From assembly GCA_964344755.1 (NCBI GenBank), contig CAYFOH010000002.1, positions 277 through 64,276 on the forward strand: a stretch of DNA of 64,000 nt. The letters are read 5' to 3'. This document shows, one piece after another, positions 9,800 through 43,700 of the stretch. This DNA is from an uncultured Methanosarcinales archaeon (lineage in GTDB: Archaea > Nanobdellota > Nanobdellia > Woesearchaeales > GW2011-AR9). The position numbers and the translations under genes were made by a program. The notes below the pieces were generated by a model. It saw only the letters and a list, made by a program, of their open reading frames with translations, was not told the DNA's origin and made no database searches. Position 1 is the first letter of the stretch. Each line of letters opens with the position of its first letter.

Positions 9800-10368
9800 A
9801 TATAACAGTACTTTATGGATCTGTAAGAGAAAGTAGACAAGGAATTAAAGCAGCTAAGTTTATAGTAAAACAATTGCAAGCAAGAAAGCACAAAGTTACT
9901 TTAATAGATCCTTTACAAGAGAAATTGCCTTTACTAAAAAAAATGTATAAGGAATATCCAAAAGGAAAAGCTCCTAAAAACTTAGAAAGGTTAGCAATAC
10001 TCTATAAGAAAACTGATGCTTTTGTCATAGTTAGTGGGGAATATAATCACAGTATTCCACCGGCTTTATCTAATTTAATTGATCATTTTTTAGAAGAATA
10101 TTTTTGGAGACCGTCAGCCATTGTTTGTTATTCTGCAGGTAGATTCGGCGGAGTTAGAGCAGCCATGCAATTAAGGGCCATGTTATGTGAAGTTGGAATG
10201 CCAAGTATACCTTCTTTATTTCCAATTGGTAAAGTTCAGGATTCTTTTGATCAAGAAGGAAATTCTTTAGTTGAACATTACAATAAAGCAATTGATAAAT
10301 TCTTAGATGAATTAGAATGGTATGCTAAAGCTCTTAAGGAACAACGTAAAAAAGGAGTTCCTTATTAA
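9796..10368 (+). CDS. NAD(P)H-dependent FMN reductase (flavodoxin-like fold)
   Basis: MNITVLYGSVRESRQG... matches the N-terminus of the NADPH-dependent FMN reductase / ArsH-SsuE-like family. Confidence 0.65.
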   Translation: MNITVLYGSVRESRQGIKAAKFIVKQLQARKHKVTLIDPLQEKLPLLKKMYKEYPKGKAPKNLERLAILYKKTDAFVIVSGEYNHSIPPALSNLIDHFLEEYFWRPSAIVCYSAGRFGGVRAAMQLRAMLCEVGMPSIPSLFPIGKVQDSFDQEGNSLVEHYNKAIDKFLDELEWYAKALKEQRKKGVPY

Positions 10369-10372
10369 AAGA

Positions 10373-10548
10373 TGGGCCTGGAGGGACTTTCCTAAACATC
10401 ACTATTCTTGGGATGAACGGATGTGAATCCCTTCGCCTCTCAAGTGGCGTGACACTTGTTTGAACCCCCGAGCTCCAGCTCTCTCAAGCGTTGAGTAGAA
10501 CGTAGCCATATAAGACTGGCGCTCTAAACCAGACTGAGCTACAGGCCC
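10373..10548 (-). tRNA. tRNA gene with two predicted introns, tentatively tRNA-Ile(UAU). Anticodon-loop intron of about 28 nt at 37/38 and a roughly 72-nt intron in the T-loop region
   Basis: Minus strand reads GGGCCUG-UA-GCUCAGUCUGGUUUAGAGC-G-CCAGU-CUUAUA[intron]A-GCUGG-AGCUC-GGGGG-UUCAAAC[intron]CCCUC-CAGGCCC-A. The 7-bp acceptor stem is perfect, the D-arm is canonical, and the spliced T-arm is GGGGG/CCCUC with a UUCAAAC loop. The discriminator A is followed by an oligo-U run. A TATA-like box (cttttaaag) lies about 27 nt upstream. The mature length would be 76 nt. Confidence 0.55.
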
Positions 10549-10653
10549 AAAATACTAGGAAACAAGTCACTTTAAAAGATTTTCGACAATAGAGCTTCAC
10601 TTTGGAGTTACTACAAACATATTTAAATCTAGAAAAAAGAGTTTTTAGCCTAG

Positions 10654-11526
10654 ATGAACCTAAACCATGTTAAAAAATTAATGGACCGTAAGAAGGGCTC
10701 GCATAAAGGTGAGAACGGATCTGCCCTGATCATTGGGGGATCCGAAGAATATGTTGGGGCCGTTGTTCTAGCTGGTTTAGCTGCTTTAAGAGCAAGTTGT
10801 GATTCTGTCACGATTGCAGCACCAGACAAAGTTGCTTGGGCGGTTCATATACATACACCTGATCTGATCACTTACAAAATAGGTGGTAAGAAATTTAGTA
10901 TCAGACATGCTAAAAAACTGATTAAACTTTCCCAGAAATATGACGCTGTTTTGTTAGGAAATGGGATAACAAGAAAAGCAGACAAATTCTGCCAACATTT
11001 TGTTAGAAAAGCAACACTGCCAAAAGTAGTTGATGCAGATGGATTGAAATCTTTATCATTTAAAGACTTTAACAATTCAATTGTTACACCCCATTACAAA
11101 GAACTTGAATTGATGTTAATTAACAGCAAAAAAGAATTTCTATTACCTAAACTTAGAGAATCACACATCAAAGAACAAGCTGACATTCTGCAAGGAAATT
11201 TAAGATACTTCTTGCAAAACAATAATGTGCTTCTACTAAAAGGACCTACAGATGTAATCATTTCTAGGAACAAAATTGCCTTTAACAGAAGTGGTAACCA
11301 AGGTATGACTAAAGCTGGAACGGGAGACGTTTTAGCTGGTTTAGCTGTTGGATTTCTAGCAAAAAGTAAGGACCTCTTCAAAAGTGCTTTGGCCGCTGCT
11401 TACCTTAATGGTCTTGTTGGTGATGCTTTACTAAACAAAAAGAAAGGGTACAGTTTTATTGCTTCTGATATCGTCGCAGATCTTGAAAATATTAATGAAG
11501 TGGCTAAGAAAGCAAAAAAAAGATAA
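10654..11526 (+). CDS. nnrD: ADP-dependent (S)-NAD(P)H-hydrate dehydratase (YjeF C-terminal domain)
   Basis: GENGSALIIGGSEEYVGAVVLAGLAALRASCD is the hallmark of the YjeF_C carbohydrate-kinase-like domain. A separate YjeF_N gene lies at 55151..55774. Confidence 0.8.
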   Translation: MNLNHVKKLMDRKKGSHKGENGSALIIGGSEEYVGAVVLAGLAALRASCDSVTIAAPDKVAWAVHIHTPDLITYKIGGKKFSIRHAKKLIKLSQKYDAVLLGNGITRKADKFCQHFVRKATLPKVVDADGLKSLSFKDFNNSIVTPHYKELELMLINSKKEFLLPKLRESHIKEQADILQGNLRYFLQNNNVLLLKGPTDVIISRNKIAFNRSGNQGMTKAGTGDVLAGLAVGFLAKSKDLFKSALAAAYLNGLVGDALLNKKKGYSFIASDIVADLENINEVAKKAKKR

Positions 11527-11530
11527 AATT

Positions 11531-13570
11531 TTAATCCTTTGTTCCAACAACAAAAATATACTGCCAAAACAAACTTCTTTCTCTAAAAACGTTAACAGAA
11601 AATCCTGCTTTCTTAAACAAAGATTTTATTTGTCCATCATTTTCAACCCAACTTATATTTGGAAAGAAGTAAAAAAATTTATCAAAATCAACAAAAACAA
11701 TTTCTCCACCTTGTTTTACTTGGTTTGATAATTTTGTTAAAATTTTTAAAGGATTTTGCATATAAGATAACATCCCCACAGAAACAATTCCATCGACGGG
11801 TTCTTCAAAAGAAAGCTTAAAATCATCTAAATAAGGATGATGATAAACGTTAACATGGGGAAGATGTTTTAGTTTTTTAGCCACAGCATTTACTTTTTTT
11901 AAAGACAAGTCAACAGCGTGAACCCTACCCTTAACACTAACTAACTCAGCTAATTTCTCAGTTAAACTTCCACCTGAACAGCCAAATTCTAGAATGTGTT
12001 TTCCATTGACATCAACAATATCTCGTAAAACTCTTTTTCTAACGCTAACCGGAAAAAGTAATTTTTCACCCAAAAGAAAAATAGAAGAAAATCTTTCATT
12101 TACACTTTTAATAGCTTGTGGATTGTAAAACATCTCTACAGAAAAATAAAAAGGCAAACCAACGGCTAAAAAAGAGAGAGCTAATTGGATTATAGATTGT
12201 GCAACACCACCCTCCAGCCTTATCCAATTAAAAACTAAACCAAAAATTCCCAAAACAATAATGATTGGCCCAAAGGTAGCCAACGGAGCTTTGAAAGGTC
12301 TTTCCAGCAGAGGTTCTTTTCTTCTTAAAATAGGTACAGTAAGAAGAATCAAAGATAAAACAATAAGGCTTAGAAGTACATAAACTAAATAGATTGTTCG
12401 ATAAGGGTTGGACCATTTAACTAAATAGCCACGGAAAATGAACCAAGAAAATAAAGCCACCATAATAGTCTGGAAATAAACAGCTCGATGTGGAGACCTA
12501 TACTTCTGGTGTAAAGAAGCAAACTGTTTTAAGAACAGCTTGTCTTTAGACATTGCCCTAATAAGCCTAGAACCAGTAATTGGCCAAGCTGCTGCTGCTC
12601 CTAAAATAACCAAATACATACCAAAAACAACAATATTCTGACCTACTTGACCCATTGTATTAAAAGCTTGAACTGCAAAAGGTCGGGCGTTGGTAACATA
12701 ATCTCTATATCCTACTGTACCTAAAGAACTAAAAATGTATAAAACCATTATTAAGCCACAAATAACCATCCCTTTTAACAAAACTTTATGCAATTTCTTA
12801 GGTTCTGCAGCCTCGTTAGCCATATAACTAATAACTTCAAAACCTAAAAATGCTTCACTAATTAAAAGAACTGACAAACCTAAAAAAGCCAATATTCCCG
12901 AACCCTCATGACGGAAAAAAGGCTTAAACAGTTCTAAATCAAAGGGGCTAGTTAATTTACCTGCAAATAAATTAGGAATATCAATAAAGGAAGGCAAGAT
13001 CATCCCAGCAACAACAACTGTAGCAATGAAACCAAAAATAACTAACATAGTAGAACCAGCATCAATGCCACGAAAAGCCATGAAATTTAAAACGATTACC
13101 CAAAGTAAAGCAAAGCCTATCCGCAAATAAAGAGCTGCTTGTGTTTGTTCAGGTATAAAATATTCTGCTGCAGCAACTAAATTCAAAGCCATACCAAAAT
13201 TACCAGCGATCCAAATTAACCAACCAGCCATGAACGAACCAAGTCTTCCGTAAGCTTTCTTACAAAAATAGTAAGTACCACCTGAGGTAGGAAGCATAGT
13301 TACTAATTCTCCCATATATAACATAACAAATGTCGCAACAATAAAAACAAAAGCCCAAGCCAAAATAGAAGCTGCCCCTGAACTGATAACTCCTAAACCA
13401 GGCAAATAGAACAAAGAGCTGCCAAGTATGGAATTTATTAAAATAAATAAAAGTAAACCAGAGGTTAACTTACGCTTTCCAGTAGATTCGTGTATACCTT
13501 CTCCTGCAGGTAAGTCTGGTTGTGTCGGTTGGCTTCCACTGAACCAAGACCAAAATTCTTTAAATCCCAT
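11531..13570 (-). CDS. APC-family amino acid permease fused to a C-terminal class I SAM-dependent methyltransferase domain
   Basis: About 480 aa of 12-TM APC-type permease. The cytoplasmic C-terminus then carries ILEFGCSGGSLTEKL (MTase motif I), AVDLS (post-I) and PVDGIVSVGML (motif II). Confidence 0.7.
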   Translation of the reverse strand: MGFKEFWSWFSGSQPTQPDLPAGEGIHESTGKRKLTSGLLLFILINSILGSSLFYLPGLGVISSGAASILAWAFVFIVATFVMLYMGELVTMLPTSGGTYYFCKKAYGRLGSFMAGWLIWIAGNFGMALNLVAAAEYFIPEQTQAALYLRIGFALLWVIVLNFMAFRGIDAGSTMLVIFGFIATVVVAGMILPSFIDIPNLFAGKLTSPFDLELFKPFFRHEGSGILAFLGLSVLLISEAFLGFEVISYMANEAAEPKKLHKVLLKGMVICGLIMVLYIFSSLGTVGYRDYVTNARPFAVQAFNTMGQVGQNIVVFGMYLVILGAAAAWPITGSRLIRAMSKDKLFLKQFASLHQKYRSPHRAVYFQTIMVALFSWFIFRGYLVKWSNPYRTIYLVYVLLSLIVLSLILLTVPILRRKEPLLERPFKAPLATFGPIIIVLGIFGLVFNWIRLEGGVAQSIIQLALSFLAVGLPFYFSVEMFYNPQAIKSVNERFSSIFLLGEKLLFPVSVRKRVLRDIVDVNGKHILEFGCSGGSLTEKLAELVSVKGRVHAVDLSLKKVNAVAKKLKHLPHVNVYHHPYLDDFKLSFEEPVDGIVSVGMLSYMQNPLKILTKLSNQVKQGGEIVFVDFDKFFYFFPNISWVENDGQIKSLFKKAGFSVNVFRERSLFWQYIFVVGTKD

Positions 13571-27929: not shown

Positions 27930-29939
27930 ATGCAAGAAGAGAATAATGAGATGTTTGTGGAAAAACAAAAAGAAATTTTAGAAGGTAAGACAACCAACTT
28001 ACCTTTTAGTTTGAATGCTTTACAGGTAATTGCCAAACGTTATTTAGTTAAAGACGTTGAAGGCAAAATCACCGAATCACCAGAGGAGATGTTTGAAAGA
28101 GTAGCAAGATCCTTGGCACAAGTAGAAAACCAATACGGAAAATCTGCAGAAGAGATTGAAAAAATCCGTCAAGATTTCTTAAGGGTCCTAATCAACAGAG
28201 AATTCACTCCAGCCGGAAGAACTTTAGCTAATGCTGGAGGTCCTACAAGACTAGTTTCAAATTGTATTGTCCTGCATATTGAAGACAGCATGCAGGGAAT
28301 TTTTAAAACTCTACAAGAAGCTTCTTTGTTACAACAAGCTGGTTCCGGCTTAGGCTTCCCACTACATTTGATGAGGCCAGCAGGTTTTTCAACAATTAAA
28401 TCCAGAGGAGAAGCCTCAGGCCCTGTCAGTTTCCTAAAAGTGTATAACACTGCGTTTGGTGTCATCAAACAACAAAATAGACACGGAGCTAATATGGCTG
28501 TTATGAGAGTTGATCATCCAGACATTCTCGAGTTTGTTCATTGCAAGGAACAAGAGGGAGCTATTAAAAATTTTAACGTGTCAGTTGGTCTTACTAATGA
28601 GTTTATGGAACAAGTTAAAAGAGATTCCCCTGAACCTTGGATGTGTGAATGGAATGGCCAAAAAATGAAGCCAAGAAGGATTTATCGTAACCAAAATTTT
28701 AGTGTGACTAAAGTAGAAGAAGTAAACATGACTGCTCGACAGTTGTTTGAAGAAATTATTACTTGTGCTTGGAATAACGGAGAGCCAGGTTGTGTGTTTT
28801 TAGATACTGTAAACGATACTAACCCTGTACCTGGTTTAGGTAGAATTGAAGCATGTAATCCTTGCGGCGAACAGTTCCTTCACGACGGCGATGTGTGTAA
28901 CTTAGGTTCAATCATTCTAGAAAATTTTGTTACCAAAGATCGACAAATCGACTATAATAGATTAAGAGAAGTTACTAGAACAGCTGTAAGAATGTTAGAC
29001 AACGTCGTGGACTTATCAGACTTTCCAGTGGATAAGGTGAATAACACTTTTAGAGGCAATCGAAGGCTTGGTCTTGGAATCATGGGTTTTGCTGACATGC
29101 TTTACAAGTTAAGAATTCCTTATAACTCTGCCGAAGGATTTGATACTGCGGAAAGAGTCATGGGTTGTATTCAAAGATCCGCTAAGGAGATGTCAAGAGA
29201 ATTAGCTGAAGAGAAAGGTGTATTTCCTAACTGGGAAAAAAGTGTTTATTATCAGAAAGGTATCAAGATTAGGAATGCTGCTTTGACTAACATTGCTCCA
29301 ACTGGAACAATCAGTATGGTCTTTGATGTTTCTGGAGGAGTAGAACCTTACTTTGCTCTTGCTTACCATTATAAAGGTATTTTAGGTGGCGACGTAGAAC
29401 TTTACTATGTTAACAAACATCTTAGGTCTGAATTGGAAAAAAAAGGCTTGCACACACAAGAAATAATGGAAAAAATTTGTAAAGAAGGTACCTTACAAAA
29501 CATTCCAGAGATCCCGGAAGAAACTAAAAGGGTCTTTGTGACATCCATGGATATCTCTCCTGAGGATCATACTAGAATGCAAGCTGCTTTCCAAAGACAT
29601 ATTGATAATGCAATCTCTAAAACAATTAACTTCCCAAACGGTGCAACAAAGGAAGATGTTTTACAAGGCTATCTTCTAGCTTGGGAGTTAGGTTGTAAGG
29701 GATGCACTGTTTACAGGGATGGAAGTAGGGAACTACAGGTATTGAATTTAAATAAAGACAAAGAACAGAACAAGGAAAAAGAAACTAAAGAACAAGTAAT
29801 GGTGCAAACAACCACTGATAGAATCAATAAACATCAGATCATGCGTTCTGGAGAGTGTCCAGAATGTTCTGGTCAGATCAGAGTTTCTGAGGGTTGTTAC
29901 ACCTGTTTAGACTGCGGTCATTCAGCTTGTAGTCTTTAA
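27930..29939 (+). CDS. nrdJ: class II (adenosylcobalamin-dependent) ribonucleotide reductase with C-terminal zinc ribbon
   Basis: 669 aa in NrdJ/RNR class II layout. Carries the class II active-site motifs CNPCGEQ and VSNCIVL, and the C-terminal CPECSG...CYTCLDCGHSAC. Confidence 0.9.
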   Translation: MQEENNEMFVEKQKEILEGKTTNLPFSLNALQVIAKRYLVKDVEGKITESPEEMFERVARSLAQVENQYGKSAEEIEKIRQDFLRVLINREFTPAGRTLANAGGPTRLVSNCIVLHIEDSMQGIFKTLQEASLLQQAGSGLGFPLHLMRPAGFSTIKSRGEASGPVSFLKVYNTAFGVIKQQNRHGANMAVMRVDHPDILEFVHCKEQEGAIKNFNVSVGLTNEFMEQVKRDSPEPWMCEWNGQKMKPRRIYRNQNFSVTKVEEVNMTARQLFEEIITCAWNNGEPGCVFLDTVNDTNPVPGLGRIEACNPCGEQFLHDGDVCNLGSIILENFVTKDRQIDYNRLREVTRTAVRMLDNVVDLSDFPVDKVNNTFRGNRRLGLGIMGFADMLYKLRIPYNSAEGFDTAERVMGCIQRSAKEMSRELAEEKGVFPNWEKSVYYQKGIKIRNAALTNIAPTGTISMVFDVSGGVEPYFALAYHYKGILGGDVELYYVNKHLRSELEKKGLHTQEIMEKICKEGTLQNIPEIPEETKRVFVTSMDISPEDHTRMQAAFQRHIDNAISKTINFPNGATKEDVLQGYLLAWELGCKGCTVYRDGSRELQVLNLNKDKEQNKEKETKEQVMVQTTTDRINKHQIMRSGECPECSGQIRVSEGCYTCLDCGHSACSL

Positions 29940-29947
29940 AAAAACAA

Positions 29948-31978
29948 ATGGCTTTAAAGAAAGTAATTAAAAGAGACAAAAGGGTTGTTCCTTTTGATCT
30001 AAATAGAATAAGTGATGCTATCTTTAGAGCCGCAATCACAGTCGGTGGGAAAGACAAAGATCTGGCTTTTTCTTTGGCCGAAGAAATTGCTCAAATCTTG
30101 GAATTAAAGTTTGAAAGTGAAGTGCCAACAGTTGAAAACGTACAAGACGTGGTAGAAAAAACTCTTATTAAGAGAGGACATGCTAAAACTGCTAAAGCTT
30201 ATATTTTACACCGACATCTTAAAGACGAAGAAAGAAGAAAAAGAACCCTTATCCTAGGAGTTGATCAACCAGAAGAAAACTTAAACTTTTCTAATCAAGC
30301 TCTTAAAATATTAGAAAGAAGATATTTGCTTCGGGATGACCAAGGAAAGGTTGTGGAAACGCCTAAAGGCATGTTGAGAAGGGTAGCCAAAAATATTGCC
30401 AAGGCTGACCTAAAATATGGGAAAGAAGATGTCAAAGAGATTGTTGAAGAATTTTTTGAAGTCATGGCTGAGTTGAAGTTTTTACCTAATTCGCCCACCC
30501 TAATGAACGCTGGAACAAAGACTCAGCAACTAAGCTCTTGTTTTGTTCTTCCCATTGAAGACAACATGGAAGGAATTTTTGGAACACTTAAAGATTCGGC
30601 AGTTATCCATCAAAGAGGGAGCGGAACTGGCTTTTCTTTCTCTCGTCTGCGTCCAAAAGGAGATCGTGTTAGAAGAAACCTAGGCGTAGCAGCTGGCCCA
30701 ATAGCTTTCCTAACAATCTATGATAAAAGTTTAGAGGCCATTAAGCAAGGAGGTATTCGTCCTGGCGCCAACATGGCTGTAATGAGGGTAGATCATCCAG
30801 ACATCATCCGTTTCATTGAATCAAAAAGAGATAAAAACAAACTTAAAAATTTTAACATATCTGTAGCCGTGACTGATCGTTTCATGCAGGCAGTTGAAAA
30901 TGATAGGGAATACTACATTACTAATCCACGAACCAACAAATATTCAGGGAGATTAAGAGCAAGAGATGTTTTTGCGTTAATAACACAAAACGCTTGGAAG
31001 ACTGGTGACCCTGGTTTGATTTTCCTTGATGAAATCAATCGTAAACATCCTGCCAAGCATTTAGGACTTATTGAAACAACTAATCAGTGCGGGGAAGCTC
31101 CATTACTTCCCTACGAAGGATGTGCTTTGGGTTCTATAAATCTTAACAAATTTTTTAAAGAAGGAAAGGTCGATTGGAAAGATTTAAAAAAAACTGTTCA
31201 AACGGCAGTACATTTTCTAGACAATGTTATTGATATGAATTCTTATCCTAAAAAAACAATTGAAGAAGCCACCAAAAGAACAAGAAAGTTTGGGTTAGGG
31301 ATGATGGGTTTTGCAGATCTCCTCTGTAAACTTGATCTTTCCTACGGCTCTAAAGAAAGCCTAGAATTTGCTGAAGAGTTAATCTCTTTTATTAAAAAAA
31401 TTGCTTACGAGTCTTCAATGAAACTAGCTGAAGAAAGGGGTGTTTGTCCTGCCTGGGAAGGTTCAGACCACCAAAAACAAGGAAGAAAAATGAGGAACAT
31501 GACTTGTCTTTCTATTTCTCCCACCGGAACAATAAGCATTTTGGCTGATGCCTCTTCTGGTTGTGAACCTTTATTTGCTATTTCCTATCAGAAGATGGTT
31601 TTTGGTGACACAGATTTGGTTTATTTAAATCAAGATTTTAAAAAGTTAGCCGTTGAAAAAGAATTTTATTCACCAGAACTTGTAAGAAAAATATCTCTCA
31701 GTGGAACCATCCAACATCTTAAAGAAATTCCAAAACATGTAAGAGACATATTCGTTACAGCACAGGACATTAGCCCCGAAGAACATATTAAAATGCAAGC
31801 AGTGCTACAAAAAGAAGTTGACAATTCCATCTCTAAAACAATTAATTTTGAAAAAACAGCTTCCATTAAGGACGTAGAAAATGCCTATCTGTTAGCCTGG
31901 AAGAACAAATGTAAGGGAATCACCATTTACAGAGATGGAAGCTACGAAGACCAAGTTATAACTTTGGGGGAGGGATAA
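29948..31978 (+). CDS. nrdJ: class II ribonucleotide reductase paralog with N-terminal ATP-cone, no C-terminal zinc ribbon
   Basis: N-terminal VIKRDKRVVPFDLNRISDAI is an ATP-cone. The rest is collinear with the upstream NrdJ, with the matching motifs TNQCGEAP and SSCFVLPIED. Confidence 0.85.
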   Translation: MALKKVIKRDKRVVPFDLNRISDAIFRAAITVGGKDKDLAFSLAEEIAQILELKFESEVPTVENVQDVVEKTLIKRGHAKTAKAYILHRHLKDEERRKRTLILGVDQPEENLNFSNQALKILERRYLLRDDQGKVVETPKGMLRRVAKNIAKADLKYGKEDVKEIVEEFFEVMAELKFLPNSPTLMNAGTKTQQLSSCFVLPIEDNMEGIFGTLKDSAVIHQRGSGTGFSFSRLRPKGDRVRRNLGVAAGPIAFLTIYDKSLEAIKQGGIRPGANMAVMRVDHPDIIRFIESKRDKNKLKNFNISVAVTDRFMQAVENDREYYITNPRTNKYSGRLRARDVFALITQNAWKTGDPGLIFLDEINRKHPAKHLGLIETTNQCGEAPLLPYEGCALGSINLNKFFKEGKVDWKDLKKTVQTAVHFLDNVIDMNSYPKKTIEEATKRTRKFGLGMMGFADLLCKLDLSYGSKESLEFAEELISFIKKIAYESSMKLAEERGVCPAWEGSDHQKQGRKMRNMTCLSISPTGTISILADASSGCEPLFAISYQKMVFGDTDLVYLNQDFKKLAVEKEFYSPELVRKISLSGTIQHLKEIPKHVRDIFVTAQDISPEEHIKMQAVLQKEVDNSISKTINFEKTASIKDVENAYLLAWKNKCKGITIYRDGSYEDQVITLGEG

Positions 31979-42204: not shown

Positions 42205-43005
42205 TTAAAGGAACTCTTGCACATTCCTAAAATCAACCTTGACAAATTTCTTAAAATTTAAACCCTTTTCCTTAGCTTGTTGTAAAGCTTTCTTAACATG
42301 GGTACTGCCTTTAGGTAATTTAAAACCAGCTAGCTCACTAAGATAGTCCATTTGTGCAAGAGCTTCTGCCCTAGCCAAAACAGAAGCTGCAGCCACTTCC
42401 AAATATTTACTTTCAGCTTTGGTTTCTTTTATATCCCCAACCTTACAGCCAGGATAAAGATCAACCACATGCTTACCAGGCAAAAGAAATTTAGCACACT
42501 TAAGATGCAGCTTGTTTAGCAACTCCGTAACTTTACCGCTTTTATTGTACTCTTCTGGTAAAATACTAATCACTTTACAAGTGTTTTTCTTCTTAACTTC
42601 AATAGCCATCTTTAAAATTTCTTGGTCATTTAACTTTTTACTGTCAGCAACTCCTATCTTTAACAATTCTTTCCTACCTTTGTCATCAGCTTTTACAGCC
42701 GCCACCACCAAGCCACCAAAGGTGTCACCTTTTAAAGATTCATCACTGCCAATGATCCAACCTTCTTCTTTTCTGAAAGAAATCTTCTTCTGTTTTTTTC
42801 CTATACAAAATTTATCTAAATCTTCTTCAACATCTCCAGTGTCTTTACCTTGTACCAATAACTTTCCCGTAGTATAATGAACCAAATTAATGTTGTCCTT
42901 CTTCAAACGTAAATCTTCATGAACGGTTTTAGGAGTAATTAATTTGTAACCCTTTTTAATTAATTTCTCTACGTCTTCTTTACTTACATCCTTGTAAACA
43001 GTCAT
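42205..43005 (-). CDS. rnhC: RNase HIII-like ribonuclease (N-terminal auxiliary domain + RNase H fold)
   Basis: IIGSDESLKGDTFGGLVVAAV matches the RNase HIII catalytic DESGKGDYFGPLVV block. VADSKKL and KYLEVAAASVLA match the downstream DSK and AASI motifs. Confidence 0.55.
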   Translation of the reverse strand: MTVYKDVSKEDVEKLIKKGYKLITPKTVHEDLRLKKDNINLVHYTTGKLLVQGKDTGDVEEDLDKFCIGKKQKKISFRKEEGWIIGSDESLKGDTFGGLVVAAVKADDKGRKELLKIGVADSKKLNDQEILKMAIEVKKKNTCKVISILPEEYNKSGKVTELLNKLHLKCAKFLLPGKHVVDLYPGCKVGDIKETKAESKYLEVAAASVLARAEALAQMDYLSELAGFKLPKGSTHVKKALQQAKEKGLNFKKFVKVDFRNVQEFL

Positions 43006-43043: not shown

Positions 43044-43700
43044 TTAGAAATCAGCCAAACTTCTCTGTAAATTCTTTTCTCTAACCTTCTTAAAAGATTG
43101 CCAACTTTTCCTAAAAAGGTCTGAATGTTCTTCATAATAATTCTCTAAAAAAAGCTGTGTTTTAGGATCCGACATATAACCTGACCCAAAATCAAGACCT
43201 AACTCTTTTTTTAGTTTCTCTATTTGTTTATCTCTTATCACTTTAGCAACAACCGAAGCAGCAGCCACAACAACGTGGTTTAAATCAGCCTTGTGTTCCA
43301 TTAAAAGTTCTACTTCTTTTTTCTTTAATTTCGATAAAAAATAATTTTTATAAGATAAAATATTAACACTAGGACAATCAACAATAACTTTATCAGCATC
43401 CAACTCAGAAACCAGTCTGGCTGACGTATCTGCTTCCAAATAATTTAGGTTAGTACTAGGATCATTTAAAGCTAGATCAATCGCACCCGGCTCGATCACT
43501 TCAATTCTAAAATCATGGACAATGTCTCTTATTCTTTCGAACAAATCCTCTCTTGTTTGAGGGTCAAGAAGCTTACTGTCTTTAACACCAATCCATTCTA
43601 GCTTTCGTATATCTTCTTCTTTAAAGGATAAAGCTACCATTACTAAAGGTCCTATGATCGGCCCTCTACCTGCCTCATCGATACCAACAACTAATTTCAT
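43044..43700 (-). CDS. rnhB: ribonuclease HII
   Basis: VGIDEAGRGPIIGPLVMVAL (DEAGRG motif), DSKLL and AASVVAK motifs. Confidence 0.85.
   Translation of the reverse strand: MKLVVGIDEAGRGPIIGPLVMVALSFKEEDIRKLEWIGVKDSKLLDPQTREDLFERIRDIVHDFRIEVIEPGAIDLALNDPSTNLNYLEADTSARLVSELDADKVIVDCPSVNILSYKNYFLSKLKKKEVELLMEHKADLNHVVVAAASVVAKVIRDKQIEKLKKELGLDFGSGYMSDPKTQLFLENYYEEHSDLFRKSWQSFKKVREKNLQRSLADF

What the first reader, a model, noticed from the sequence alone, without database searches (positions are those of the whole stretch)
10373..10548. tRNA gene with two predicted introns, one at a non-canonical T-loop position; anticodon reads UAU (tRNA-Ile decoding AUA)
The minus strand begins with a textbook acceptor stem and D-arm (GGGCCUGUAGCUCAGUCUGGUUUAGAGCG) and ends CAGGCCC-A-UCUUUU. 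A cloverleaf only closes if a roughly 28-nt intron is removed after anticodon-loop position 37 (CCAGU-CUUAUA^...^A-GCUGG) and a roughly 72-nt intron from the T-loop region (GGGGG-UUCAAAC^...^CCCUC). Non-canonical intron positions are known from Thermoproteales, but a T-loop intron this long is unusual. A genomically encoded UAU-anticodon tRNA-Ile is itself rare in archaea; most use agmatidine-modified CAU. The long second intron contains a GUGAUGU C-box-like motif, which could host a C/D sRNA.
Basis: partly seen in the sequence, partly recalled or inferred. Interest (0 to 1): 0.55.

Follow-up and report, generated by a model that had tools for sequence, protein, structure and literature searches.

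The report
Two-intron archaeal isoleucine tRNA gene
This is a real archaeal gene for the isoleucine tRNA that reads AUA codons, interrupted by two introns, and it is an ordinary example of something already described in DPANN archaea.

Summary
Window 10548..10373 (minus strand, 176 nt) is a tRNA-Ile(UAU) gene with two endonuclease-type introns. Intron 1 is 28 nt at the canonical 37/38 site, in a strict 3-4-3 bulge-helix-bulge motif. Intron 2 is 72 nt in the T-loop.

ARAGORN and Rfam miss the gene as it stands. ARAGORN calls tRNA-Ile(tat) once the T-loop intron is removed. The spliced 76-mer aligns without rearrangement (88% identity) with an intron-less homologue.

About 45 further genes carry an intron at the same T-loop site (13-143 nt among clean parses), with covarying stems. 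Of 36 syntenic relatives, 31 have this intron and 8 have a third intron in the D-arm.

The rarity claims fail for this lineage. UAU anticodons and 59/60 introns were both reported for ARMAN archaea in 2011.

The C/D-box idea is not supported. There is no D box, and GUGAUGU is not conserved in homologous introns.

Verdict: a new member of a known kind. Two side observations, a conserved intron core and an alternative exon-intron helix, are unexplained.

The parts
10570..10585 (-). Archaeal BRE/TATA-like promoter element CGAAAATCTTTTAAAG. The TATA part TTTTAAA lies at -29..-23 from tRNA position 1.
   Evidence: Read directly. The motif GAAAAYCTTTTAAA sits at the same distance upstream of the orthologous gene in most of the 36 relatives. 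Function as a promoter is inferred.
10509..10548 (-). Exon 1: tRNA positions 1-37 (acceptor 5' strand, D-arm, anticodon stem 5' strand, loop C32-A37). The anticodon U34-A35-U36 is at window 10512..10510.
10481..10508 (-). Intron 1: 28 nt at the canonical 37/38 site (UGGCUACGUUCUACUCAACGCUUGAGAG). It forms a strict hBHBh' motif: h = the 5-bp anticodon stem, H = CUUA/UGAG (4 bp), bulges UA|U and AG|A, h' = GGC/GCU.
   Evidence: Exhaustive BHB scan. ARAGORN places the intron here. Rfam's tRNA model places a 29-nt insertion after CUUAUA.
10459..10480 (-). Exon 2: tRNA positions 38-59 (A38, anticodon stem 3' strand GCUGG, variable loop AGCUC, T stem 5' strand GGGGG, U54-A59 UUCAAA).
10387..10458 (-). 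Intron 2: 72 nt at non-canonical position 59/60 in the T-loop, in a relaxed BHB motif.
- h = the 5-bp T stem.
- The 3' bulge is AG|U.
- H = U54-A, U55-A, C56-G plus an A57xG mismatch.
- The 5' splice site AA|C lies in a 3x1 loop.
- h' (helix P1) = AAGUGUCAC (10457-10449) with GUGAUGUUU (10402-10394).
- A core conserved in relatives spans 10458-10405. It includes hairpin HP1: 10458-10454 paired with 10445-10441, with loop GUCACGCC.
10373..10386 (-). Exon 3: tRNA positions 60-73 (U60, T stem 3' strand CCCUC, acceptor 3' strand CAGGCCC, discriminator A73). No CCA is encoded.
10367..10372 (-). Oligo-T tract (UCUUUU) directly after A73, the likely transcription stop.
   Evidence: T-rich tracts follow A73 in nearly all relatives. 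Function is inferred.

Best explanation
Window 10548..10373 (minus strand) is a functional gene for tRNA-Ile(UAU), the decoder of the AUA codon, in an uncultivated, probably DPANN, archaeon.

Inferred pathway:
1. The gene is transcribed from a BRE/TATA promoter about 26 nt upstream and stops at the oligo-T after A73.
2. The 176-nt precursor carries two protein-spliced introns. Each presents its splice sites in a bulge-helix-bulge motif to the archaeal tRNA splicing endonuclease (EndA).
3. The 28-nt intron at 37/38 sits in a strict 3-4-3 motif. The 72-nt intron at 59/60 sits in a relaxed motif, built from the T stem, a 3-nt bulge AG|U, a U54-A57 helix and a closing helix made from the intron's two ends.
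4. The three exons are then joined, presumably by RtcB, and CCA is added. The product is a 76-nt tRNA with T-loop UUCAAAU.

Shown here: the sequence anatomy, the cloverleaf after in-silico splicing, both motifs, and conservation with covariation in many homologues.

Inferred, not shown: transcription, cleavage, ligation, aminoacylation, and that this is the cell's only AUA decoder.
For: - Splicing in silico. Removing nt 91-162 lets ARAGORN call tRNA-Ile(tat) with a 28-nt canonical intron. Removing both introns gives a 76-nt cloverleaf.
- Colinearity. The spliced sequence aligns without rearrangement, 67/76 identical, with the intron-less tRNA-Ile(UAU) gene of L045, contiguous across both junctions.
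- Intron 1. It is one of six strict hBHBh' solutions in an exhaustive scan of the precursor, and it lies at the canonical 37/38 site with the full 5-bp anticodon stem as h (H 4 bp, h 5, h' 3).
- Intron 2 junction. Of the possible T-loop junctions, only 59/60 gives both a BHB-like geometry and a normal 7-nt loop.
- T-loop BHB in homologues. Across 42 homologous genes, 94.2% of cells in the T stem plus H helix pair, against 80.6% in shuffles and 25-66% when the register is slid. Four of five T-stem pairs show compensatory changes. H includes UUCG/CGAA alongside UUCA/UGAA. The fourth H pair is unpaired in 12 of 42, so the window's A57xG is a common variant.
- Intron-free relatives. Five syntenic relatives lack the T-loop intron; L126, L136, L172 and L187 read UUCAAAU contiguously and L181 reads UUCAACU.
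- Closing helix. A helix between the intron's two ends is general: median z = -2.57, and 21 of 33 introns have z < -2.
- Synteny. The gene sits divergently upstream of the same kinase gene in relatives whose kinase is 65-77% identical. The BRE/TATA and oligo-T are conserved there too.
- Demand for the tRNA. AUA is 25% of Ile codons in the window's ORFs, 18 per 1000 codons.
- Literature. ARMAN (DPANN) archaea have tRNA-Ile(UAU) and lack both tRNA-Ile(CAU) and TiaS. ARMAN-2 EndA cuts a canonical pre-tRNA-Ile(UAU) intron and a 59/60 relaxed-BHB intron in vitro (PMC3239211).
Against: - The T-loop motif is relaxed. The fourth pair of the central helix is an A-G mismatch. One extra nucleotide (A, window 10393) lies between h' and H. 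The closing helix is rich in G-U pairs and weak (-5.7 kcal/mol, z = -1.15).
- A strictly specific EndA would not cut it. No EndA, RtcB or TiaS was found among the 40 larger window ORFs scanned against Pfam. About 26 smaller ORFs were not scanned, and the rest of the genome is unavailable.
- The unconstrained MFE of the precursor does not form the D-arm or the anticodon stem/BHB. It forms an alternative exon-intron helix instead.
- There are no expression data.
Confidence: 0.9

Rival explanations
1. The gene is the same, but the T-loop intron is spliced at 60/61 as the first reader drew it (mature loop UUCAAAC), or at 56/57-58/59 (loop UUCAAGU).
For: All of these also give ARAGORN-valid cloverleaves of 76 nt. 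A register with the 3' cut one base earlier (AA|G) gives a geometrically cleaner motif with H 3 bp, h 5 and h' 9.
Against: - 60/61 and 56/57-58/59 give at most one or two H pairs by hand analysis of the pair table.
- The AA|G register would leave an 8-nt T-loop or an extra base between the T and acceptor stems.
- Homologues conserve YGAA-AG|U or YGAA-AA|U next to the T stem.
- Four of the five intron-free relatives read UUCAAAU.
Confidence: 0.06
2. The locus is a decaying or non-functional tRNA pseudogene that has picked up insertions. It is not a spliced gene.
For: Standard tRNA finders reject it. The T-loop motif is imperfect. The predicted MFE is not a cloverleaf.
Against: - The same two-intron architecture, with intact stems and compensatory changes, recurs in about 45 genes from different lineages.
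- The promoter and terminator are conserved.
- All five independent assemblies of this population are identical across both introns.
- AUA codons are frequent.
Confidence: 0.04
3. The long T-loop intron hosts a box C/D sRNA, as the tRNA-Trp intron does in Haloferax. GUGAUGU would be its C box.
For: GUGAUGU matches six of the seven positions of RUGAUGA (window 10402-10396).
Against: - There is no CUGA anywhere in the precursor, and no C'/D' boxes.
- The motif lies at the 3' end of the intron, whereas a C box lies at the 5' end of the sRNA.
- Rfam gives no snoRNA or sRNA hit on this strand, even at E <= 10, and none in five related loci.
- The homologous introns read GUUACAC (L135) and CGUGACA (L128) at this place. 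Those changes keep pairing with the intron's 5' end, which shows that the segment is a helix strand.
Confidence: 0.03
4. The introns are not passive. This reading is compatible with the best explanation.
- The T-loop intron core (10458-10405) would be a selected RNA element with two mutually exclusive folds, HP1 and P1.
- The 5' part of intron 1 would form a selected alternative helix with exon nt 20b-32.
- Together they would order or gate maturation, or present U34 for an intron-dependent modification.
For: - The core is 52/54 identical between the window and L135, while the mature tRNAs are 75% identical and intron 1 is 50% identical.
- HP1 has compensatory changes in 4 of 5 pairs.
- P1 is kept by quite different sequences in seven introns.
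- The alternative exon-intron helix is 83.3% paired in 32 unselected relatives, against 34-51% when the register is slid. It has 28 double-change cells against 10.2 +/- 2.9 in shuffles. It is also the predicted MFE in relatives.
Against: - With L128 the core is no better conserved than the exons (77% vs 78%). Many relatives manage with 13-30-nt T-loop introns that lack the core.
- nhmmer finds the core nowhere else.
- The alternative helix reaches 7 bp or more at that register in only about 15% of the wider DPANN set. A crude control with other intron-containing tRNAs gave a similar fraction.
- Relatedness inflates the shuffle statistics.
Confidence: 0.2

Closest known systems
ARMAN-2 (Ca. [quoted passage not shown] 2011, PMC3239211)
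   Same: - A DPANN archaeon.
- tRNA-Ile(UAU) with a canonical intron of about 25 nt in a strict hBHBh' motif.
- A 59/60 T-loop intron in a relaxed hBH/BHL motif.
- Both were cut by the organism's own EndA in vitro.
- UAU replaces the tRNA-Ile(CAU)/TiaS system.
   Different: - Here both intron types sit in the same tRNA-Ile gene.
- The 59/60 intron is 72 nt, against 13 nt in ARMAN-2, and it has a closing helix and a conserved core.
- The EndA type of this organism is unknown.
Multi-intron tRNA genes of Thermoproteales/Crenarchaeota, up to three introns per gene (as summarised in PMC3239211)
   Same: - Several BHB introns in one gene, at canonical and non-canonical sites.
- Relaxed motifs.
- Relatives here reach three introns (D-arm, 37/38, 59/60).
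   Different: - A different archaeal lineage: low G+C, DPANN-like.
- Crenarchaea rely on the (alpha-beta)2 EndA. DPANN were reported with epsilon2 EndA, or alpha4 EndA carrying the L3 loop (PMC5829648).
tRNA-Ile(UAU) of Nanoarchaeum equitans and Korarchaeum cryptofilum (PMC6000648)
   Same: A genomically encoded UAU anticodon for AUA in an archaeon. The K. cryptofilum gene also has an intron.
   Different: Those were treated as isolated exceptions (2 of 167 genomes). Here the gene belongs to a very large DPANN-wide set.
Box C/D guide in the Haloferax volcanii tRNA-Trp intron (own knowledge: Clouet d'Orval et al. 2001)
   Same: A long archaeal tRNA intron that could carry a second function.
   Different: The defining boxes are absent here and the candidate C box is not conserved. 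This locus is not a member.
Eukaryotic tRNA-Ile(UAU), whose intron is needed for pseudouridine 34/36 formation (own knowledge: Szweykowska-Kulinska et al. 1994)
   Same: The same anticodon and a near-universal canonical intron. There is the same need to stop U34 reading AUG.
   Different: No evidence here for any intron-dependent modification. This is an analogy only.

Membership tests
tRNA (archaeal elongator tRNA-Ile) | Cloverleaf with a 7-bp acceptor stem, D-arm, anticodon arm and T-arm after intron removal | tested here: met
   ARAGORN calls tRNA-Ile(tat) on the spliced sequence.
tRNA (archaeal elongator tRNA-Ile) | Conserved tRNA nucleotides: U8, A14, G18-G19, U33, and T-loop U54-U55-C56-R57-A58 | tested here: met
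   Read directly from the sequence.
tRNA (archaeal elongator tRNA-Ile) | Sequence homology to uninterrupted tRNA-Ile(UAU) genes | tested here: met
   67/76 identical and colinear with the intron-less gene of L045. The 5' exon matches more than 100 DPANN tRNA-Ile(UAU) genes.
tRNA (archaeal elongator tRNA-Ile) | Score above the Rfam RF00005 gathering threshold on the genomic sequence | tested here: not met
   13.7 bits against a threshold of 29, on the 5' half only. This is expected with a 72-nt T-loop insertion. The tool cannot score a custom spliced sequence.
tRNA (archaeal elongator tRNA-Ile) | Aminoacylation with isoleucine and decoding of AUA | not testable with these tools
   The IleRS identity elements known from E. 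coli (A73, C4-G69, U12-A23) are present by direct reading. Charging itself is not tested.
BHB (EndA-spliced) intron, canonical 37/38 | Intron between positions 37 and 38, with splice sites in two 3-nt bulges separated by a 4-bp helix and flanked by helices (hBHBh') | tested here: met
   H = CUUA/UGAG (4 bp), bulges UA|U and AG|A, h = 5 bp, h' = 3 bp. Among 119 homologous canonical introns, H has 4 pairs in 66 and 3 pairs in 50.
BHB intron, non-canonical 59/60 (relaxed BHB / hBH) | 3' splice site in a 3-nt bulge between an exon helix (h) and the central helix (H) | tested here: met
   The T stem (5 bp), then bulge AG|U, then H. RNAalifold recovers this arrangement on eight homologues.
BHB intron, non-canonical 59/60 (relaxed BHB / hBH) | Central helix of exactly 4 bp | tested here: inconclusive
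   Three pairs plus an A57xG mismatch in the window. The same pair is unpaired in 12 of 42 homologues and is A-U, G-C or G-U in the other 30. This is acceptable only for an EndA with relaxed specificity.
BHB intron, non-canonical 59/60 (relaxed BHB / hBH) | 5' splice site in a 3-nt bulge followed by helix h' | tested here: inconclusive
   AA|C followed by a 9-bp, G-U-rich helix, but with one extra A opposite, making a 3x1 loop. A competing local hairpin, HP1, would put the site in a junction instead.
BHB intron, non-canonical 59/60 (relaxed BHB / hBH) | A splicing endonuclease with broad specificity encoded in the genome | not testable with these tools
   No EndA among the 40 larger window ORFs scanned. 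About 26 smaller ORFs were not scanned. The rest of the genome is not available.
Box C/D sRNA | C box RUGAUGA near the 5' end and D box CUGA near the 3' end, forming a K-turn | tested here: not met
   Only GUGAUGU, at the intron's 3' end. No CUGA in the precursor.
Box C/D sRNA | Boxes conserved in homologues, or a match to an Rfam C/D family | tested here: not met
   The motif reads GUUACAC in L135 and CGUGACA in L128. No Rfam hit on this strand.
Self-splicing group I / group II intron | Ribozyme core of hundreds of nucleotides, matching the Rfam models | tested here: not met
   The introns are 28 and 72 nt, with no Rfam match.

The most novel reading that the evidence does not exclude
In this DPANN clade the tRNA-Ile(UAU) introns would be functional RNA elements rather than inert spacers.
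- The 5' part of the canonical intron would form a selected 11-12-bp alternative helix with exon nt 20b-32. That helix dissolves the D-arm and anticodon stem and displays U33-U34-A35-U36-A37 in a hairpin loop.
- The T-loop intron would carry a conserved core that toggles between a local hairpin (HP1) and the BHB-closing helix (P1).
- Together they would order or gate splicing, or serve an intron-dependent modification of U34 that keeps UAU from reading AUG. That would parallel the eukaryotic tRNA-Ile(UAU) case.
Probability: 0.15. Interest if true: 0.6.

Novelty: new member of a known kind. Interest (0 to 1): 0.3.

Why it matters
- Annotation. Standard tRNA finders miss this gene, so the genome would appear to lack any decoder for AUA, which is a quarter of its isoleucine codons. 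ARAGORN with introns enabled also labels many sister genes tRNA-Ile only if it places the intron correctly; about 25 are called 'tRNA-Ser(tga)'. Kaneta et al. 2018 (PMC5829648) noted incomplete tRNA sets in some newly sequenced DPANN and Asgard genomes. Genes like this one are a concrete cause.
- Biology. The result confirms earlier reports. It extends the ARMAN findings of 2011 (UAU instead of TiaS, and 59/60 relaxed-BHB introns) to another DPANN-like clade. In that clade the two-intron, and sometimes three-intron, tRNA-Ile gene is the norm.
- Possible new biology. Only the side observations could lead to something new: an intron core better conserved than the exons, and competing helices.

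Tried and rejected
- ARAGORN, default and with -i0,200, on the window and on the region found nothing at the locus.
- Rfam at gathering thresholds found only tRNA-Gly and tRNA-Glu. At E <= 10 on the region it gave a sub-threshold tRNA 5' half and two noise hits on the opposite strand, SNORD28-like and Afu_182.
- An exact 33-nt 5'-exon scan of JGI metagenomes found nothing. I replaced it with a protein-anchored search on the neighbouring kinase.
- Alternative T-loop junctions (56/57 to 60/61, and a +1 register) were rejected on BHB geometry, loop length and homologues.
- The C/D sRNA idea was rejected.
- nhmmer with the intron-2 core against the window and all 200 loci found only the training introns. 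There is therefore no sign of copies in other genes. blastn-short gave the same answer.
- A scan of the window for further T-loop-interrupted tRNAs found none credible.
- A literature search for PRJEB17505 found nothing.
- I tested whether the alternative exon-intron helix is specific to tRNA-Ile by comparing other intron-containing tRNAs. The test was inconclusive because ARAGORN -i yields many false positives.
- I did not use the large protein-homology searches. Taxonomy beyond 'archaeon, DPANN-like' therefore rests on gene content and on the labels of related contigs.
Full report
**1. What is in the sequence**

The minus strand of window 10548..10373 reads as three exons and two insertions.
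- Exon 1: GGGCCUG-UA-GCUC-AGUCUGGUUUA-GAGC-G-CCAGU-CUUAUA.
- A 28-nt insertion.
- Exon 2: A-GCUGG-AGCUC-GGGGG-UUCAAA.
- A 72-nt insertion.
- Exon 3: U-CCCUC-CAGGCCC-A, followed by UCUUUU.

The window has 33.7% G+C.

Standard tools miss the gene.
- ARAGORN finds only tRNA-Gly(GCC) and tRNA-Glu(UUC) in the window, even with introns allowed.
- Rfam finds the same two at gathering thresholds.
- In permissive mode on the region, Rfam aligns only the 5' half of its tRNA model, across a 29-nt insertion after CUUAUA (13.7 bits, E = 5.4).

**2. Is it a tRNA?**

Deleting pre-tRNA nt 91-162 makes ARAGORN call tRNA-Ile(tat) with a 28-nt intron at the canonical site. Deleting both insertions gives a 76-nt cloverleaf. 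Deleting only the anticodon-loop insertion gives nothing.

The spliced sequence is GGGCCUGUAGCUCAGUCUGGUUUAGAGCGCCAGUCUUAUAAGCUGGAGCUCGGGGGUUCAAAUCCCUCCAGGCCCA. It aligns colinearly, 67/76 identical, with an intron-less tRNA-Ile(UAU) gene from a Micrarchaeia MAG (L045). That gene is contiguous across both proposed junctions.

A deliberately loose scan of both strands of the window asked for an acceptor pair, a T stem and an interrupted T-loop. It returned AT-rich junk, the two known tRNAs and this locus only.

**3. The splice sites**

I used the archaeal bulge-helix-bulge rule: on each strand a 4-bp helix H, then a 3-nt bulge cut after its second base.

Intron 1 (window 10508-10481) is a strict hBHBh' motif.
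- h is the 5-bp anticodon stem.
- H is C32-U33-U34-A35 paired with UGAG.
- The bulges are UA|U and AG|A.
- h' is GGC/GCU.
- The anticodon is therefore U34-A35-U36, with A37.

Intron 2 (window 10458-10387) has several junctions that restore a 7-nt T-loop. Only 59/60 also gives a BHB-like geometry.
- h is the T stem.
- The 3' bulge is AG|U60.
- H is U54-A, U55-A, C56-G plus an A57xG mismatch.
- The 5' site is A58-A59|C.
- The closing helix is AAGUGUCAC/GUGAUGUUU, offset by one extra A.

The intron length is 72 nt either way. With 59/60 the mature loop is UUCAAAU.

**4. Homologues**

Nearly all hits are DPANN MAGs: Woese-, Pace-, Micr-, Iain-, Aenigm-, Nano- and Parvarchaeota. A few are CPR and other bacteria. 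Of the 108 I could parse:
- 68 have only the canonical intron;
- 24 have no intron;
- 15 have the canonical intron plus a T-loop intron;
- 1 doubtful parse has only a T-loop intron.

*Syntenic relatives.* A search anchored on the neighbouring Carb_kinase gene (window 10654-11526) returned 75 related metagenome loci at 65-77% amino-acid identity. Many carry the tRNA divergently upstream of the kinase, as in the window. Among the 36 distinct genes of this clade:
- 24 have two introns;
- 7 have three introns (a D-arm intron, 37/38 and 59/60);
- 4 have only the canonical intron;
- 1 has a D-arm intron plus the canonical intron.

Five genes lack the T-loop intron. L126, L136, L172 and L187 read UUCAAAU contiguously, which supports the 59/60 junction; L181 reads UUCAACU.

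*Intron length.* Cleanly parsed T-loop introns at this site run from 13 to 143 nt. The pooled set of 47, which includes doubtful parses, has median 44 nt.

*Covariation at the T-loop motif.* I counted pairs on 42 genes.
- 94.2% of cells pair, against 80.6% in shuffles and 25-66% for slid registers.
- Four of five T-stem pairs show compensatory changes.
- H pairs in 87.5% of cells and includes UUCG/CGAA alongside UUCA/UGAA.
- The fourth H pair is unpaired in 12 of 42 genes. The window's mismatch is therefore a common relaxed variant.

RNAalifold on eight homologous T-arm/intron sequences independently recovers the T stem, H and the 3-nt bulge. A helix between the two ends of the T-loop intron is general: median z = -2.57, with 21 of 33 below -2. 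In the window it is weak because of G-U pairs (-5.7 kcal/mol, z = -1.15).

**5. Expression signals**

CGAAAATCTTTTAAAG (window 10585-10570) puts a TATA-like TTTTAAA at -29..-23. GAAAAYCTTTTAAA lies at the same distance in most of the 36 relatives. Oligo-T follows A73 throughout, and no CCA is encoded.

AUA makes up 25% of Ile codons, 18 per 1000 codons, in the window's ORFs. An AUA decoder is therefore needed.

**6. Genomic context**

The window is archaeal. It encodes CDP-archaeol synthase, aIF2-gamma, Orc1/Cdc6, a family B DNA polymerase and an HTH_10 regulator, along with many ORFs that have no Pfam match.

No EndA, RtcB or TiaS appears among the 40 larger ORFs I scanned. About 26 smaller ORFs were not scanned.

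The same population occurs in five assemblies of ENA project PRJEB17505, with identical introns.

The nearest species-representative contig I fetched is L046, whose aIF2-gamma is 83% identical. It is labelled 'uncultured Methanosarcinales archaeon'. I doubt that label, because L046 carries the same two-intron tRNA-Ile(UAU).

**7. Comparison with what is known**

- Fujishima et al. 2011 (PMC3239211) reported that ARMAN archaea have tRNA-Ile(UAU) and lack tRNA-Ile(CAU) and TiaS.
- The same paper showed that ARMAN-2 pre-tRNA-Ile(UAU) has a 25-nt canonical intron in a strict hBHBh' motif.
- It also showed that a 59/60 intron in pre-tRNA-Cys forms a relaxed hBH motif, and that the epsilon2 EndA cuts both in vitro.
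- Kaneta et al. 2018 (PMC5829648) linked alpha4 EndAs carrying an L3 insert, in several DPANN lineages, to many disrupted tRNA genes. They also noted incomplete tRNA sets in some newly sequenced DPANN and Asgard genomes.
- Among 167 mostly cultivated archaeal genomes, only K. cryptofilum and N. equitans have tRNA-UAU (PMC6000648).

Every element of the finding has precedent. The combination of both intron types in one tRNA-Ile gene is new only as a member of a known kind.

**8. The C/D idea**

- GUGAUGU (window 10402-10396) lacks the final A of the C box and lies at the intron's 3' end.
- The precursor contains no CUGA.
- Rfam gives no C/D hit on this strand, here or in five related loci.
- The homologous introns read GUUACAC (L135) and CGUGACA (L128) at this place.
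- Three of the L135 changes turn G-U or U-G pairs into G-C or U-A pairs with the unchanged 5' strand. The segment is therefore the 3' strand of the closing helix. I reject the C/D idea.

**9. Unexplained extras**

(a) *A conserved intron core.* The first 54 nt of the T-loop intron are 52/54 identical to the intron of L135. Yet the mature tRNAs are 75% identical, intron 1 is 50% identical and the kinase is 73% identical. Recognisable relatives of this core occur in L128, L129, L161, L166/167 and L170, and nowhere else in the sequence held.

Within the core, a 5-bp hairpin with an 8-nt loop NUYWCGCC (HP1) shows compensatory changes in 4 of 5 pairs. HP1 shares its 5' strand with the closing helix, so the two folds exclude each other.

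With L128 the core is no better conserved than the exons. Recent intron transfer between the window lineage and that of L135 is as good an explanation as selection.

(b) *An alternative exon-intron helix.* Intron 1 nt 2-13 (GGCU-A-CGUUCUA) are complementary to exon nt 29-32 and 20b-26.
- In 32 unselected relatives, 83.3% of cells pair, against 34-51% for slid registers. There are 28 double-change cells against 10.2 +/- 2.9 in shuffles.
- This helix, not the D-arm and anticodon stem, is in the predicted MFE of the window precursor and of several relatives.
- In the wider DPANN set only about 15% of introns show it at that register. A crude control with other intron-containing tRNAs was not clearly different.

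I record it and do not build on it.

**10. Verdict**

The junction needs moving by one base. The claims of unusual length and rarity, and the C/D suggestion, should be dropped. It is a new member of a known kind. Its value is mainly for annotation, with two modest leads for follow-up.

Noticed in passing
window 10526-10515 (exon nt 20b-32) with 10507-10496 (intron 1 nt 2-13), minus strand: The 5' part of the canonical intron is complementary to the D-stem 3' strand, G26 and the anticodon-stem 5' strand. This gives an 11-12-bp alternative helix that excludes the D-arm and the BHB motif. It is kept with compensatory changes in syntenic relatives (83% of cells paired, against 34-51% when slid). 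It is also the predicted MFE. It was not shown to be specific to tRNA-Ile.
   Followed up: partly
window 10458-10405 (minus); L135 2131-2075: The core of the T-loop intron is 52/54 identical to that of a relative whose mature tRNA is only 75% identical and whose intron 1 is unrelated. This points to intron transfer or strong constraint. The core has two mutually exclusive folds, HP1 and the closing helix P1.
   Followed up: partly
L131, L134, L135, L148, L162, L171, L172, L178 (syntenic relatives): The orthologous tRNA-Ile(UAU) genes carry a third intron of about 22-85 nt in the D-loop/D-stem. Seven of the eight have three introns in all (D-arm, 37/38, 59/60), which is the known archaeal maximum. 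L172 has only the D-arm and canonical introns.
   Followed up: partly
L006-L125: ARAGORN -i labels about 25 tRNA-Ile(UAU) genes as 'tRNA-Ser(tga)', and single genes as Ala(tgc) or Thr(tgt), because it places the intron after U34. This is an annotation pitfall for DPANN genomes.
   Followed up: no
L035, L046, L055, L064: These contigs are labelled 'uncultured Methanosarcinales archaeon' but carry the DPANN-style two-intron tRNA-Ile(UAU). L046 also shares an 83%-identical aIF2-gamma with the window. The taxonomic label is probably wrong.
   Followed up: no
window 20373-21056 (-): An S4-domain plus PseudoU_synth_2 (RsuA/RluB-like) pseudouridine synthase. I noted it only because U34 of a UAU anticodon may need modification. 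No link was tested.
   Followed up: no
window 27930-29939 and 29948-31978 (+); 42205-43005 and 43044-43700 (-): Two tandem ribonucleotide-reductase large-subunit genes, only the second with an ATP-cone, and two tandem RNase HII paralogues.
   Followed up: no
window 10654-11526 (+) and 55151-55774 (-): The two halves of the NAD(P)H-hydrate repair enzyme, Carb_kinase and YjeF_N, are encoded as separate genes 44 kb apart.
   Followed up: no
window 11531-13570 (-): A 679-aa fusion of an amino-acid permease with a C-terminal SAM-methyltransferase domain, conserved at about 61% identity in relatives.
   Followed up: no
L183 and L136 (tRNA-Tyr genes): The canonical introns of tRNA-Tyr(GUA) in relatives also carry a stretch (CGUUUUG) complementary to their own D-stem 3' strand (UAGAACG). 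Intron/D-arm pairing may therefore not be limited to tRNA-Ile.
   Followed up: no
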